Shown: positions 6,089 to 60,415 of the stretch, piece after piece
Position numbering within the stretch: the stretch's first letter is position 1
How the letters are laid out: every line of letters starts with the position of its first letter
From: Octopus vulgaris
Taxonomy: Eukaryota
NCBI GenBank assembly: GCA_951406725.2
Contig: OX597831.1
Coordinates: 21,948,001-22,012,000 of the forward strand
DNA length: 64,000 nucleotides
Reading direction: 5' to 3'
Made by a program: the position numbers and the translations under genes
The notes under the pieces: generated by a model
Database searches by the model: none
Told to the model about the DNA's origin: nothing
What the model saw: only the letters and a program-made list of their open reading frames with translations

Positions 6089-6109
6089 ATCTGTTTTTTC
6101 TCCCTCGAA

Positions 6110-6877
6110 GAGAAGTTCTTGTCTGTCCTATATAATTATGTCCACAAACTGAACAAGTTATAAGACAAGTTAGATTCTCGAAAGCACACGTGAAGTTGAT
6201 TTTAATTGTGAACCTCTTTCCTTGTTTGAATTGGAATTCCGAGCCTTCCTTCAGGTTGGGGTAAGTTCCTCAGTTTGGGCGTCCACATTTTTTAACTATC
6301 GCTTTCGTGGTTCTTGAGTAAAGTTTCACATTTGTCAGAAGTCTTTTCGTTTTTGGCTCCCCAGGAAGCATTGGTAGATTGTGTAGAATAGTGTTGTATG
6401 CCTCATTGTTTCTAGTGTTGTGAGTTGATACATACAATAGTATTTTGAGATGACGTGTGGTGTTACGTTTGCTTTCCTTTAGTGTTTTAAGGCCTGGTTT
6501 TTTAGCACGTTTAATTTCGTCATCTATAAACGAGGGTGGATCGTCTCTCTCAATTAGTGTTGTTTTGAGGTCTTGAAGACGGAGGTCCCAAATATTTCCA
6601 TCAGACACTATTGTGCAAATCTTTTCGCTAAATTAAAGGAGATATTTTATTTGATGTGTTTCGTGTGACATGAGCTAAACAAAAGATATTGCTTCCTGTC
6701 TGTTGGCCTATGATAAACGTCAGTTACAATTTGGTTCTTGACTTTTTTATCATAATATCTAAGAAAGGGAGGTATTCTTTGCTATATTCCATTGTAAATT
6801 GAATGTCAGTGTTTAGTATTGATTTAGATTTTGAAAGTTTATCAGTAGTCTCATTCCAAATGATAAATCAGTCAGCC

Positions 6878-6880
<3 letters not shown>
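6110..6880 (-). pseudogene. Penelope-like element RT C-terminus/thumb, linker and GIY-YIG start, decayed
   Basis: ORF 6270-6608 (SDGNIWDLRLQDLKTTLIER...KKCGRPN) is homologous to ORF 11533-12075; downstream ITCSVCGHNYIGQT. Confidence 0.88.
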
Positions 6881-8905: not shown

Positions 8906-9192
<287 letters not shown>

Positions 9193-9200
9193 TATATATA

Positions 9201-10273
9201 GGATCTGTTCAGCTAGACTGACAGATTTTTAATTATTTTTTAACTAAACAGTTTGAAATTTCATTTAATGGGAGAATGCCACGTGCATAACACGGTTTAC
9301 TTTGAACACTTTCGACAAAATTTGGTATTTTAGAAGTTATTTCGTGTTAAAGGGGTCGCATTTGAGTAATTTCAACCAATCAACGACGTGTATTCAGGTG
9401 AAAAAATCTACTGCTGTTTGCGATAGCAATCGAAGAGGAACAACTTCTGAGTCATCTCTACTAAATGTCACTACTCTATTCTATTCGTATGTCGAGCGAA
9501 GATGATGCCACCTTTATCCTTTCTTCCCTTCTAGTCAGCACCGTGCATTCCTTACTCTTTCCCTCTCTTCTACACTATCAGCTAGCAACCAGCAAACGAA
9601 CTTGTCACTGCCACTGCAATTACCGTATTTTCCGGTGGAAAAGCCGCTATTTGTTTTGTTTTACGTTCATGTTTTGATAACGAAATTTTTAATCTAATAA
9701 AGACTTTTATATTGACGAAATGTGTTCGTTGTTGATTATAGTAAGATAAAATCATGACAATAACAATACATCACATAGTTGTAAAATTAGGCATTTTGAA
9801 ACCAATCAGCAACAAAAAAAGCTAGCTGCGGACTCGTAAATGTATAGTTCTTTTAAACACCGGTGCGCTTCATGTGTGGATAAAACTCCGATGTCGGGCA
9901 AACCAATATGTAAATAATATTTCTTCCTTCTTGGTGTTGATTCTTCGACGTTTACTGGTTACTACGACACGAGTAGAAATAATATAGAACATAATGGTAA
10001 CATTTAGTAGAGATGACCCGGAAATTGTTCCTCTTCGATTACCATCGCAAACAGCAGTAGCTTTCTTTAACTGAATACACGTCGTTGATTGGTTGAAATT
10101 ACCCAAATACAACTTTAACACGAAATAACTTCCAAAATACCAAATTTTGTAAAAAAAAATGTTGAAAGTAAACCGTGTCCTGCATAAGGCATTCTCTCAG
10201 TATACGAAGTTTCAAACAATTTAGTTAAAAAAGAAATTAATTAAAAAATCTATGAACCAAACTGAATAGATCC
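9201..10273. mobile_element. Non-autonomous DNA transposon (MITE) with ~290-bp imperfect terminal inverted repeats
   Basis: GGATCTGTTCAG...CTGAATAGATCC ends flanked by TA; 9201-9495 is the reverse complement of ~9965-10273. Confidence 0.82.
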
Positions 10274-10609
10274 TAAATGTATCATACCCAACGTATATTT
10301 GTGTATATACTTTTGTGAGTAACATTTAGGCATTTAAAGCTGTTGAATATGTTCTACTTTACATGATTTACGTTCTAAATCATTCGACCCGAGCTCTAAT
10401 ACATTTGACATCGGTTGGAGTCGTTATGTTTATTATATTCAAACGTTAATTCTGTTGCCTTTTTTGCTTCATAACATTTCATTAACGGTTTTACGTTCTG
10501 ATAATCAGACTAGTTTTCTCCTTTTTCTTGCTGGTAAATCTAGTCAATATACGTGTATATAATACGCAGTGCTGTGTGGTCATTCTATATATATATATAT
10601 ATATATATA

Positions 10610-12669
10610 GAAACAGACTACATCACGAACTTCAAATGTAAACCCAGTCTTTTTTATGGCCTCCCTAAAATACACAAAGCAAGCTAATCAATGAAGCCTG
10701 CAAACAATCACCAGGCAAATATATAAACACCCAAATGCCAGAAGACTTGACTTTAAGACCCATTGTAGCTGGGCCAGCCTGTGAAACCCACCGACTGAGT
10801 AATTTTCTAGACATCCTACTGAAACCCTTGCTGAAATACATCAAAAGCTTCATTAGGGATGATTTAGACATGTTAGAACACCTACCAAAAACGATTAATG
10901 AAGAAGCAGTATTGGTCACCCTGGATGTTATCAATCTTTACACAACATCCCCCATGACTATGGAATAGAAGCAATTAAATTCTGGTTGGAAAAGTACCCC
11001 GAAGTCCTGCCGGAACGCATAAACCAGACCTTTATTATTGAATCCTTAAAATTTATACTTCAGAACAATTATTTCCTATTTGATGACACATACTATCGTC
11101 AGAAATGCGGAATTGTGATGGGGACGAAAGCAGCTCTTGTTCTTGCGAACCTAATAATGGGTTGTTTTGAATTCACCCTATATGAAGTATCACTTCAGAA
11201 ATATGGTCACCCATTTTACCTCTACATAAGAGAAAATTGGAAACGATAAATGGATGACTGTTTTATCATCTGGAAGGAGAATATCGACAAACTTCTGGAT
11301 TTCAAAACAACACTAAATGACATAAATAGTAACATTCAATTCACAATGGAATATAATAAAGAACAACTTCCATTTTTAGACATCATGATGGAAAAAAGTC
11401 AACAATGAAATCATAACTGACATTTATTATAAACCAACTGACGCAAAACAATATCTTCTTTTTAACTCATGCCACCAGAAACACATAAAAATAAACATCC
11501 CTTTTAACTTAGTAAAAAGGATCTGCACAATAGTGTCTGATAGAACAACTCGGGACCTTCGTCTCCAAGACCTCAAAACAACACTTACTGAAAGACAATA
11601 TCCACCCTCTCTTATCGACGAGGGAATTAAACGTGCCAAACAATTAGACACAAAAACACTAAGAACAAAAATACATAGCACCACATCTCAAACCAAAACA
11701 TTACTTTTTATATCAACACACAACCCCAGAAACAGTGAGGCATTCAACACTATTTTGCAAACCCTCCCTTTACTAACTAGAGATCCAAAAATGAACGACA
11801 TCCTGAAAACACACAAACTCATCAAATGCAAAAAACAAGACAAATCGCTAAAGAGACTACTAACAAATGCGAAGCTTTACAAAACAACCACGAAACCAAC
11901 GGTTAAAAAATGTGGGAGCCCGAACTGTGGAACCTGCCCCCACCTGCTTGAAGGCTCGGATTTCCTTTTCAAACAAGGACAGAGGTTCACAATTAAAACT
12001 AGTTTCACCTGTGCCTCTGAGAACCTAATTTATGTAATAACCTGCTCGGGTTGCAGTCATCAGTACATTGGATAAACGAGTTTAACTTTGAGGAAGAGAA
12101 TCACTCTGCATAAAGAGCAAATCCGTTTCCCGCAATACAGACAAATTCCTCTTAGTGAACACATAGAAAAATGTGCAGGTAACATCAAACCAAATTTTAC
12201 AGTCTTCCCTTTATACCAGTGCAAAGACACAATCTCTCAACTAGAACGTTTAAATAAAGAAACTTTTTTTATTGAAAAATACAAAACGCGTCTTAATAAG
12301 CACGAATAACCAATTTTTATATTTTTACATATTACCTCACTGTACATAAATCCACTACTAAACAAGGCCCCCTTTCTGTCTCCTTTCTGTACACATTTAT
12401 TCGCCACCCAAAACCTAAACAGTTATCTCCCTTACACACAACAATAACAATAATAACAACCAATTACCTCGCTTTACTTGTCAACTTGTAAAATCATTCA
12501 CTCGTGAATTTCATTAGAAACAACATGGACCCATTTTCTTCTTAAGAAAAATATATTTTCATATATATTAAACATTGTATCATGAATAGCGATTGCGAAA
12601 CCGGTCGATACATGACAAATTATACAATAACCATGTAAGTGTGCGTATTTTCCGTTTTTATTTTATTTT

Positions 12670-12670
<1 letters not shown>
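10610..12670 (+). mobile_element. 5'-truncated Penelope-like retroelement (RT, Cys-rich linker, GIY-YIG, 3' pLTR), frameshifted
   Basis: LRPIVAGP, LVTLDVINLYT, GIVMGT, WKR*MDDCF, CGSPNCGTC, NLIYVITCSGCSHQYIG; (TA)n on both flanks. Confidence 0.95.
12576..12612 (+). ncRNA. Minimal type I hammerhead ribozyme motif (A3-U8 variant) in the PLE 3' pLTR
   Basis: TGTATC-ATGAATA-GC(GATT)GC-GAAA-CCGG-TC-GATACA; perfect 6-bp stem I, ACCGGT palindrome, GUC triplet, sense to the PLE ORF. Confidence 0.78.
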
Positions 12671-12716
<46 letters not shown>

Positions 12717-13150
12717 ATTTACTTTTATTCCATTATCAATTATTTTACTTCATATGTTTCATGTTTCCCTATATTCCACTAATTTTATATTTAACTTGCT
12801 GGGAGGTATTATATATTCAACTTTACACAATTTACTTATTACACTGCTTGCATATATATAAATTTTAAGCAGAACAAAATCAAAAAATAATTGGAAATTA
12901 CAGATAGGAAATTCAGAAGTCAAGATGTACTGGTGTCTCCACGTATCATTACAAGAAGCATTGTTCTTTAGGAATTTTTACAGTGAATGTCAATAATAAT
13001 GCTTGTTATGTACGTTTTGGAGCTTTTACACGAAATGTGACGAATATGTTGTACACGTGCAACTTTTACAAAATTAAACCTTTGAAAATCTTAAGACAAT
13101 GTATATTACCTATCTGTAAGATCATATGTCCGTGTGTAAATATGAATATA

Positions 13151-13716
13151 TTGGGTTGTCCGGAAAGTTCGTGCCGATTTATAGTAGCTTACCTTTCGAC
13201 TTATTTTAGAACATGGTTGAGTCCATAAAATAGGATTTGACTACATCTCCATTTAGAGCAGAGTTTAGGCTATCTTTTCGTGGAAGAAGGTTTATGTTTC
13301 TATAACCTGTGATAATTTTGTAACCCTTTAAAATAGAAGATAAGAAAGTTCATTTTCGGCATTTGATACTTTCGGAACCAGACAAACATTGCTACCGCTC
13401 GGTTGGGATTGGTTACTCCACCATCCATATTTACCGGATATTGCTCCTTCGGATTTCCACTTATTCAGGTCTCTGCAGAATAGTCTTAATGGTAAAAATT
13501 TCAATTCCTTGGATGATGTAAAAAGATACCTTGATGAATTCTTTGCCATGAAACCAGGTCAATTTTGGGAAGAGAGTATTTTTCAAGTTAAAGAAAGATG
13601 GAGACGCATTGTGCAACAAAATGGTTCATATTTGGTTGATTAAAAATGTAATGGCAAGTATTTATTGACCTTTTTCTTTCCTTTAAAAATCCGTACGAAC
13701 TTTCTGGATAACCCAA
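13151..13716 (+). mobile_element. Internally deleted mariner element
   Basis: TIRs TTGGGTTGTCCGGAAAGTTCG...CGAACTTTCTGGATAACCCAA, TA TSD; ORF 13389-13643 has HPYLPDIAPSDFHLF (YSPDLAPSD motif); N-terminal EDKKVHFRHL relic. Confidence 0.93.
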
Positions 13717-14410
13717 TATTTTGATAATTTACATGTGCAAGATTTGTGAAATTTGGTAGATCATTTATTAAAGAAAATAACATAATGGCAAATAACAAGT
13801 GAATCGTTGAATAGAACTTATGTATTGCACACACTAAAAGCAATCAAACCTGTATAAATATATGATGATTAATAAATGATTAATGAATATAATTTTCTTA
13901 TTTCTCTTGTAATTTTGGTATTTTTCTTTACATAGACTCTCAATAGCAACTTTCAACATGCATGTTTTCCAGCAATAACTCCAATTAGAAAAATCGAATA
14001 TTCATACATACAAACCAATATGTTCTAATTATCGCTAAGTCAAGTAAAACACCTGTTATCATTATTGCCGGTTCTGGTTCTCTAGGGACCTAATAAAATT
14101 ACTCCAGATACAATGTTTATATACATGTTTACGTACAATAGCAGAAAATCAAGCTTAATATTATTAGTTTATCCGCTACTACAGTAATCCCAAGCACCGA
14201 TAAATTTAACCTTCATAAGCCCAATGGGAAGTTGCTAATTATACATAAAGTTTCGAAGCACACATGGAGCGCCTGGTGAAACTTGGTTTCCACTATTACT
14301 AGGTAGATATCTGTTTTGTCTCCAGAGTAGACCAGATTTGTAAGTGCGTCCCAGTACAACAATAAAGCACTGAACTTTGCCGAGGAGATAAAATACTTGC
14401 TGAAGTTTAA

Positions 14411-24708: not shown

Positions 24709-25461
24709 TCAATAAATGGTGGGGTTGTGTTGACCGCACGTGGAGAAATGATAAGCAAGGAAAAATTGTAAAAATGCAGAATGCTAAATTGAAAGAAAAT
24801 TTTAATGAATTGAGAAATTGAAAAAATATATAAATATATATTTATTCAAACCGGTTTTCGTCATAGTGTGACTTATCAAGAATAGTTATGTAAAAAAAGG
24901 GTTTTTTTTAAATGAGAAAGGGGAAAAAAAAAAAGAAATTTGCATTGTTTTTTGCAAAAGAATAATAATAAATATGTACAAAAATTAAAAAATAAATACT
25001 CCGATACATTGTGAGTTCGTTGTGTATCTTGAGTTTAATGATTGTTCACGAAAAAGTTACCTTGAGGTGTTAGGATCCAATGGGATTAAGACCATGTGTT
25101 TTTTGGTTTAATTAAGGATGTTGGCAAAAACAGGAAGTAGTAGTAATTGTGGTTCTTCAGTTCCTGTGTTGTGAATAAGGGGAGACAACTCTTTTGAGTT
25201 CTTCAATTTTTGTTTCACAAAATCCCCTGTAATAAAGGCTGCTAATAAACCCCAAATTATAAAATTATCATTTTAGCTTCATTTGTATTATCTTTTTTAT
25301 ATAATTGTTTGTTAACTTAACTTTCAGATTTTAACACTTTATTTATATTATTTTCTAATTATATAAATTTGCATAGACCAATTTATAATTACATTTCAGA
25401 ATTATTTTCTTTCAATTTTCTTTCAATTTAGCATTCTGCATTTTTACAATTTTTCCTTGCC
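24705..25461 (-). mobile_element. (TA)n-bounded PLE-derived module with inverted repeat 24755-24801 / 25414-25460
   Basis: ~47-bp inverted repeat, internal hammerhead motif, TA runs on both sides. Confidence 0.7.
24843..24884 (-). ncRNA. Minimal type I hammerhead motif (U3-A8 variant)
   Basis: TATTC-TTGATAA-GTCA(CACTA)TGAC-GAAA-ACCGGT-TT-GAATA; all three stems pair; AACCGGTT palindrome. Confidence 0.75.
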
Positions 25462-60090: not shown

Positions 60091-60415
60091 TTGCAGCGTG
60101 GAAGGTGTTTGTAAGCCATTTAAGAAACACACAAAAACCGTTACATTCACTTCAACATTTAAATTTAATTTGCCAAAATATTTTCGTCGCTTTCAGACCG
60201 CGACCTGTTCACTGACAAAAATATCGTGCTAACAGGTCGCGGTCTCAAAGCGACGAAAATATTTTCACAAATTAAATTTAAATGTTGAAGTGAATCTAAC
60301 GGTTTTTGTGTGTTTCTTAAATGGCTTATAAACACCTTCAACGCTGCAACTGTTTTCGTTCCAGCACACGATCTCAGATCAAGTCACTTGCTATGCAAGT
60401 ACATCTCTGTAACTA
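60091..60415. mobile_element. TA-bounded fold-back PLE-derived module (arms 60091-60209 / 60231-60349)
   Basis: ~119-bp near-perfect inverted arms with a 21-nt spacer; contains a hammerhead motif. Confidence 0.85.
60169..60219 (-). ncRNA. Minimal type I hammerhead motif (G3-C8 variant)
   Basis: TTTGTCA-GTGAACA-g-GTCGC(GGTCTGAAA)GCGAC-GAAA-ATAT-TT-TGGCAAA; 7-bp stem I, 5-bp stem II, AATATT palindrome. Confidence 0.7.

What the first reader, a model, noticed from the sequence alone, without database searches (positions are those of the whole stretch)
12576..12612. A3-U8 hammerhead with a 2-bp stem II in the 3' terminal repeat of a recognisable Penelope element
Seen: a 37-nt motif ~270 bp downstream of the GIY-YIG stop, on the sense strand, with perfect 6-bp stem I, ACCGGT palindrome and GUC site. 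This ties the ribozyme modules to PLEs. Inference: it is an extremely reduced, rare-core variant.
Basis: partly seen in the sequence, partly recalled or inferred. Interest (0 to 1): 0.75.

Follow-up and report, generated by a model that had tools for sequence, protein, structure and literature searches.

The report
Flipped-core mini hammerhead in Penelope elements
A family of Penelope-type jumping genes with over a thousand copies in this animal genome carries a very small hammerhead RNA motif whose usual C-G core pair is replaced by A-U; it likely cuts itself slowly and only in pairs, but cutting has not been tested.

Summary
12576-12612 is a type I hammerhead motif: 6-bp stem I, A3-U8 core, 2-bp stem II, palindrome in place of stem III. 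It lies 266 nt after the GIY-YIG stop of a dead, 5'-truncated Neptune/Nematis-type Penelope-like element. A3-U8 is family-wide, not decay: 1,181 genomic matches against 25 in the control, and 15 of 15 copies picked by RT sequence keep it. Related families (about 60% protein identity) carry U3-A8 at the same place, and the core stays 20-21/25 identical while 4-fold sites are near saturation. That points to selection on the fold. Folding models allow it only as a dimer. Cleavage is untested. Copies keep 60-100 nt past the cut site, and 5' ends do not cluster there. Hammerheads in these elements, U3-A8 and 2-bp stem II are published. I found no natural A3-U8 in print, but could not read the closest paper (Lunse 2017). 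All four Watson-Crick pairs occur at 3-8 in this genome. The scan noted A3-U8 before, in this genome and two others. Verdict: new variant of a known kind, moderate interest.

The parts
10612..12306 (+). 5'-truncated, broken RT-thumb-linker-GIY-YIG coding region of a Neptune/Nematis-type Penelope-like element (several frameshifts and in-frame stops; dead copy)
   Evidence: Three-frame translation; Pfam GIY-YIG; RVT_1 and GIY-YIG in sister copy L105; family copies 87-97% identical
12310..12668 (+). 3' untranslated end = pseudo-LTR region; this copy ends without the optional tail and runs into a (TA)n tract
   Evidence: the same region precedes ORF1 in partial tandems
12576..12581 (+). Hammerhead stem I, 5' strand
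   Evidence: compensatory changes across subfamilies
12582..12588 (+). Core A3 U4 G5 A6 A7 U8 A9 (A3-U8 pair); A3-U4-G5 also reads AUG
12589..12596 (+). Stem II, 2 G-C pairs and a 4-nt loop; loop varies between subfamilies
12597..12606 (+). G12 A13 A14, 6-nt palindrome (predicted intermolecular stem III) and C17; predicted cut after 12606
12607..12612 (+). Hammerhead stem I, 3' strand

Best explanation
The 37 nt are a minimal type I hammerhead motif with an A3-U8 core pair, carried family-wide in the pseudo-LTR of a Penelope-like retrotransposon, and it likely works as a slow, dimer-dependent and probably protein-assisted self-cleaving RNA. Shown: the motif, its place in the pseudo-LTR, family-wide A3-U8, Watson-Crick pairing kept at 3-8 across families, and core conservation beyond neutral divergence. 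Predicted: a single copy cannot close stem III (2-nt loop), so two copies pair through their palindromes and swap stem I strands to make two active sites, cutting after C17 (12606). The two copies would come from a partial-tandem transcript or from two RNAs. Inferred: cutting is inefficient and trims or circularises some tandem transcripts rather than setting the end of the template, because inserted copies keep 60-100 nt beyond the cut. Inferred, not shown: A3-U8 arose by a double change from the U3-A8 of related families. This window's copy is dead and alone, so it would cut only on read-through transcription with a partner in trans.
For: Family-wide core: 83 vs 0; 1,181 vs 25; 92 of the first 100 listed are A3-U8 with 3 (C excluded) and 8 free (counted by eye); 15 of 15 RT-picked copies keep A3 and U8, 11 of them with the whole core intact (5 of the 20 fetched were left out for lacking a continuous 3' end). 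Pairing at 3-8: with both free, the first 100 of 1,981 matches are 33 A-U, 62 U-A, 3 U-G, 2 mismatches (by eye); paired in 90 of 93 distinct rows, covariation 0.282 against 0.140 shuffled, 82% of cells paired against 17-41% when slid. Selection: 25-nt core 20/25 and 21/25 identical to two sister-family copies, against 24/64 at 4-fold sites and 186/302 residues. Stem I pair 3 is A-U in 36 and G-C in 22 of 71 A3-U8 rows. Contigs of three runs with three organism labels show no change above 5% at core positions, but a matched change in stem I. Dimer: for the short motif the hammerhead dimer is the lowest-energy fold in L031, L049, L065 and L068, and 2.5 kcal/mol above it for this copy. Architecture: hammerhead-ORF1 partial tandems. 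Literature: dimers with low activity (PMC4209133); a protein-assisted Penelope hammerhead whose cutting is not needed for insertion in vitro (PMC11167929).
Against: No activity data. In a full double-mutant scan of one type III hammerhead only the G3-C8 swap restored activity (PMC9901934). Stem II does not covary inside the A3-U8 group. The monomer fold is no more stable than shuffles (z 0.19). In this subfamily the stem II segment is itself nearly self-complementary and gives a competing dimer that is predicted more stable. With 22-nt flanks the constrained dimers of L031 and L049 did not form stem I. 5' ends of ORF1-bearing copies scatter from -302 to beyond +300 relative to A3, none at the cut (+26). 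Most rows were found by a core pattern and are related, so the shuffle counts are not probabilities. Direction of change is not shown: A3-U8 rows form one group at SH-aLRT 99, a distant outgroup rooted inside them, and a cleaner set gave one group with support 20.
Confidence: 0.7

Rival explanations
1. The hammerhead shape is kept as a binding or packaging signal for the element's protein, or as an RNA-dimerisation module, and catalysis is negligible; the 3-8 pair is free to take any Watson-Crick form because only shape is selected.
For: All four pairs occur in high-copy families here. Inserted copies are uncut at this site. No 5'-end clustering at the cut. Cutting was dispensable for insertion in vitro in PMC11167929. 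A3-U8 gave low activity in PMC9901934.
Against: Core positions U4 G5 A6 A9 G12 A13 A14 are kept in most RT-picked and endonuclease-picked copies and between families with near-saturated synonymous sites. The 3-8 pair is a feature of the active fold (PMC2837043 passage).
Confidence: 0.2
2. A3 is kept because A3-U4-G5 is an AUG that opens a short upstream reading frame ahead of ORF1 and damps its translation, with U8 following to keep the pair; cleavage would remove the AUG.
For: From this AUG, 22 of 27 distinct copies of the window's subfamily and 16 of 18 of the next give an 18-codon frame. ORF1 has its own AUG about 175 nt downstream.
Against: Frame length is scattered in the oldest subfamily (mostly 11-38 codons); U3-A8 relatives lack this AUG; shared length among close copies follows from descent.
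Confidence: 0.06
3. The motif is a fossil: a once-active hammerhead carried along neutrally, with A3-U8 a chance founder state.
For: No expression or cleavage evidence; this copy is dead.
Against: Core identity far above the neutral yardstick between families; two matched transversions separate A3-U8 from U3-A8 with few unpaired states; compensatory changes in stem I.
Confidence: 0.04

Closest known systems
Minimal type I hammerheads of metazoan Penelope-like elements (Cervera and De la Pena 2014, PMC4209133; read: main text parts 1-2 of 4, supplement file 2 parts 1-2 of 3)
   Same: Type I, in the pseudo-LTR, palindrome in place of stem III, G10.1-C11.1 pair, predicted dimer; one natural core covariation (U3-A8) reported; small palindromic helix III variants reported.
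   Different: A3-U8 rather than C3-G8 or U3-A8; stem II of 2 bp rather than 3-8; no extra nucleotide after A9. Their descriptor could not have found it.
Natural hammerhead core variants (Perreault et al. 2011, PMC3088659; read: passages)
   Same: 3-8 covariation in nature (U3-A8); stem II often 2 bp, once 1 bp; palindromic loop III dimers.
   Different: A3-U8 not named in the passages seen; their tested 1-bp stem II example depends on a pseudoknot, and I found no such contact here.
Poseidon hammerhead of Anolis (PMC11167929; read: passages covering much of the main text)
   Same: Pseudo-LTR hammerhead; copies with and without a short tail; insertion from uncut RNA; AT-rich targets.
   Different: C3-G8 core, different clade; there the ORF starts inside the ribozyme, here ORF1 starts about 175 nt downstream.
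Small dimer-cleaving hammerheads of Penelope-like elements (Lunse, Weinberg and Breaker 2017, PMC5785218; not held, title and citing passages only, content otherwise recalled)
   Same: Reduced stem III, dimer cleavage, Penelope association.
   Different: Unknown whether A3-U8 or 2-bp stem II cases are in their set; this is the main open check on novelty.
Neptune and Nematis clades (Craig et al. 2021, PMC8557442; read: Introduction, passages, supplement search)
   Same: RT, linker zinc finger, C-terminal GIY-YIG with internal CxxC, (TA)n targets, inverted and partial-tandem copies.
   Different: Not placed against reference elements; two motif strings of this family were absent from the supplement file searched.

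Membership tests
Type I hammerhead ribozyme | Three-way junction with U4 G5 A6 A9, G12 A13 A14, A15.1-U16.1 and H17; ends in stem I | tested here: met
Type I hammerhead ribozyme | Watson-Crick pair between positions 3 and 8 | tested here: met
   A3-U8; paired in 90 of 93 rows
Type I hammerhead ribozyme | Strict consensus C3 and G8 (as in PMC3088659) | tested here: not met
   A3 and U8; filed as a variant, not a consensus member
Type I hammerhead ribozyme | Rfam hammerhead model match | tested here: not met
   No hammerhead family at E up to 10 on 12400-12670
Type I hammerhead ribozyme | Loop I - loop II tertiary contact | tested here: inconclusive
   A distal stem I with an internal loop is predicted in some copies (L002, L093, L094) but not others
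Type I hammerhead ribozyme | Self-cleavage after N17 | not testable with these tools
   Only contigs were available
Penelope min-hammerhead (PMC4209133) | Located in the pseudo-LTR | tested here: met
   After the endonuclease and before ORF1 in partial tandems
Penelope min-hammerhead (PMC4209133) | Palindromic 15.2-16.2 and loop III allowing a dimer | tested here: met
   (folding model only)
Penelope min-hammerhead (PMC4209133) | G10.1-C11.1 pair | tested here: met
   77 G-C and 4 G-U of 93 rows
Penelope min-hammerhead (PMC4209133) | Stem II of 3 bp or more and an extra nucleotide after A9 | tested here: not met
   2 bp, no extra nucleotide
EN+ Penelope-like element | RT followed by C-terminal GIY-YIG | tested here: met
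EN+ Penelope-like element | Partial-tandem or inverted 5'-truncated copies, optional tail, (TA)n targets | tested here: met
Neptune/Nematis clade | CX2-5CxxC linker finger and CxxC inside GIY-YIG | tested here: met
   Both read in the translation
Neptune/Nematis clade | RT phylogeny with reference elements | not tested
   No reference sequences were on hand

The most novel reading that the evidence does not exclude
An active natural hammerhead of about 33-37 nt that combines the A3-U8 pair, a 2-bp stem II and no monomeric stem III, unpublished, and held by selection in more than a thousand copies. With the U3-A8, G3-C8 and C3-G8 families of the same genome it would show that Penelope hammerheads are tuned to be slow and protein-licensed, and that C3-G8 descriptors miss most of them.
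Probability: 0.35. Interest if true: 0.65.

Novelty: new variant of a known kind. Interest (0 to 1): 0.45.

Why it matters
Why Penelope-like elements keep hammerheads that barely cut in vitro is an open question. This family and its relatives form a natural series with a similar scaffold and different 3-8 pairs and stem II lengths, which can be assayed side by side with and without the element's protein. It also shows that searches fixed on C3-G8 and a stem II of 3 bp or more overlook thousands of motifs: 1,981 matches to the 2-bp pattern and 5,444 to one mostly G3-C8 family pattern, against 1,756 (control 375) for the canonical pattern used (patterns differ in strictness).

Tried and rejected
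Rfam: no hammerhead hit on the region; whole-window list cut at 150 of 358, the listed rows being simple-repeat matches. Pfam on five separate frame pieces: none; GIY-YIG appeared only on the read-through frame. Monomer folding: z 0.19 for the 37-mer, uninformative for a dimer. Expression: no RNA holder listed; contigs only, so ends cannot be read; contig depth was not used. Idea that the core AUG is the ORF1 start, as in Anolis Poseidon: rejected, the frame stops after about 18 codons and ORF1 has its own AUG. Idea of an intron between ribozyme and ORF1: a donor-like site follows the motif, but I saw no acceptor before the ORF1 AUG in the copies. Idea that 5' ends mark the cut: not seen among the 30 loci (rows at +345 are an artefact of an inversion in one reference copy). 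Rooting with a distant element: unstable. A strict descriptor missed all 30 sister-family copies picked by endonuclease, most of which lack the first stem I pair; they were read by eye. Literature searches for natural A3-U8: searches found no paper; two searches listed none holding an A3-U8 term together with hammerhead core data; some searches were general. Not held: PMC5785218, PMC1986816, PMC2271363, PMC44321. Supplement file 1 of PMC4209133 could not be searched.

Full report
Observation. The sequence at 12576-12612 reads as a type I hammerhead: six Watson-Crick pairs of stem I, core A3 U4 G5 A6 A7 U8 A9, two G-C pairs of stem II round a 4-nt loop, G12 A13 A14, a 6-nt palindrome and C17 at 12606. 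A descriptor for this shape hit 0 of 100 first-order Markov windows and 2 places in the real window. Rfam does not score it. It begins 266 nt after the stop of a frame matching Pfam GIY-YIG above cut-off.

The element. The coding region 10612-12306 is 5'-truncated, starts and ends at (TA)n tracts, and is broken by frameshifts and stops. It has a CX4CxxC linker finger and a CxxC inside the GIY-YIG, the marks of Neptune/Nematis elements in PMC8557442 (Introduction read). The genome G000 has 2.8 Gb in 227 contigs; that it is octopus-like is my guess, echoed by earlier scan notes. The 3' stretch drew 1,390 candidates, 40 scored at 94-100%. One copy keeps a 635-residue open RT-EN frame (L114). Fuller copies have an ORF1 ahead of the RT frame. 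The hammerhead stands both after the endonuclease and about 175 nt before the ORF1 AUG in partial tandems (L222, L224; sister L105 with two motifs 3,468 bp apart), so the region is a pseudo-LTR. The window's copy has only the 3' instance.

Is A3-U8 the family state? Yes. 28 of the 30 closest loci matched a pattern with 3 and 8 free, all as A3-U8. A tight pattern gave 83 matches, control 0, all A3 (U8 was fixed there). A general A3-U8 pattern gave 1,181 against 25, spanning at least four subfamilies with different loop II and N7. With 3 (not C) and 8 free, 92 of the first 100 listed were A3-U8 (by eye). Free of motif bias: of 20 copies fetched by RT similarity, the 15 with a continuous 3' end all keep A3 and U8, and 11 keep the whole core. 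Contigs from three public runs with three organism labels (two studies) show no core change at 5% or more, but a matched G-to-A and C-to-T in stem I.

Is the pair under selection? With 3 and 8 free and a 2-bp G-C stem II, 1,981 places match against 0; the first 100 are 33 A-U, 62 U-A, 3 U-G and 2 mismatches (by eye). The U3-A8 motif belongs to a sister family of about 60% protein identity, 135-180 nt after its endonuclease. Three further families picked by GIY-YIG or by the window's second motif also carry U3-A8, with 4-5-bp stem II. On 93 distinct rows the 3-8 pair holds in 90; 82% of cells pair against 17-41% for slid partners; no shuffle of 500 reached the covariation score. These rows are related and mostly pattern-found, and one (L218) is probably unrelated, so this is support, not a probability. 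The stronger test is the yardstick: the 25-nt core is 20/25 and 21/25 identical to two sister copies, whereas 4-fold sites agree at 24 of 64. Stem I covaries at its third pair (36 A-U, 22 G-C of 71 rows) but shrinks to 4-5 bp in older subfamilies; stem II does not covary within the group. A3-U8 rows form one side of a single branch in two of three trees (SH-aLRT 99, where 21 of 95 rows were thinned out and the quick method was used; support 20), while rooted a long outgroup inside them. A change from U3-A8 to A3-U8 is the simplest reading but is not shown.

How it likely works. A monomer would need a 2-nt hairpin loop, which the folding model forbids. Two copies can pair their palindromes and swap stem I strands; this double hammerhead scores -18.1 kcal/mol for the window's copy against a -20.6 alternative that uses the near-palindromic stem II segment, and it is the lowest-energy fold for the short motif of L031, L049, L065 and L068. 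Published Penelope minimal hammerheads cut only as dimers and poorly (PMC4209133). The Anolis Poseidon motif cuts only with the element's protein, and insertion uses uncut RNA (PMC11167929). The copies here fit that: of 35 ends mapped, 11 run into (TA)n about 60 nt past the cut, 23 carry a further tail, 1 is unclear (tail counted by eye), so the templated 3' end was uncut or religated. 5' ends do not cluster at the cut. I therefore read it as a slow, dimer-dependent, probably protein-assisted ribozyme (0.7), with a shape-only signal as the main rival (0.2). Against activity: only the G3-C8 swap rescued a type III hammerhead in PMC9901934. For it: I recall from Przybilski and Hammann 2007 (not held) that any Watson-Crick pair at 3-8 kept cleavage in two type III ribozymes, by a margin that depended on context.

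Comparison and novelty. Hammerheads in pseudo-LTRs and the U3-A8 swap are in PMC4209133; U3-A8 and 2-bp stem II are in PMC3088659 (passages). None of the 56 motifs in Fig. S3 of PMC4209133 has A3 or a 2-bp stem II, but the descriptor excluded both. Searches for natural A3-U8 found nothing. The closest study, Lunse et al. 2017, was not held, so 'not in print' is provisional. Other papers seen: PMC6765202, PMC2837043, PMC2920678, PMC10085705 (passages); bioRxiv 10.64898/2026.07.22.740005 (part 1 of 5). In this genome the 3-8 pair is labile: canonical pattern 1,756 vs 375, a G3-C8 family 5,444 vs 0 with 94 of the first 100 G3-C8 (by eye). Earlier scan notes report A3-U8 in this genome, in a frog-like genome and in a phage; they are unchecked leads, not support. 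Verdict: real, selected, a new variant of a known kind; interest 0.45.

Noticed in passing
window 24842-24885 (-): Second type I hammerhead motif: U3-A8 core, 4-bp stem II, 8-nt palindrome, in a solo pseudo-LTR piece of another Penelope-like family; 5 of 12 fetched loci carry a related endonuclease frame.
   Followed up: partly
window about 60165-60220 (-): Hammerhead-like motif with a G3-C8 core and 5-bp stem II inside an inverted duplication; its pattern matches 5,444 places against 0. Link to an element not checked.
   Followed up: partly
window 6099-6879 (-): Older, decayed RT-thumb-endonuclease remnant of a related Penelope-like element.
   Followed up: no
L090:1600-2900, L105:3278-4620: These families have an ORF1 of about 270 residues or more, coiled-coil-like by eye, ahead of the RT frame, with a U-rich slippery-type heptamer at the overlap in both the A3-U8 family (8 distinct loci) and the U3-A8 sister; possible -1 frameshift.
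   Followed up: partly
L109, L110, L013:2162-2881: Tandem repeat of about 359 bp with one hammerhead per unit (retrozyme-like, 4-bp stem II); some arrays have C3-G8, another U3-A8 on the same scaffold.
   Followed up: partly
L197, L202 and related loci: A young Penelope-like family with many 781-residue open frames, a long 3' end of tandem repeats and a U3-A8 hammerhead 430-960 nt after the endonuclease in most copies.
   Followed up: partly
window 13150-13720: Short element with inverted ends that looks like a decayed Tc1/mariner piece (read by eye; label recalled).
   Followed up: no
window 9150-10300: Long imperfect inverted repeat pair (about 9210-9410 and 10060-10270), MITE-like, just upstream of the element (read by eye).
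   Followed up: no
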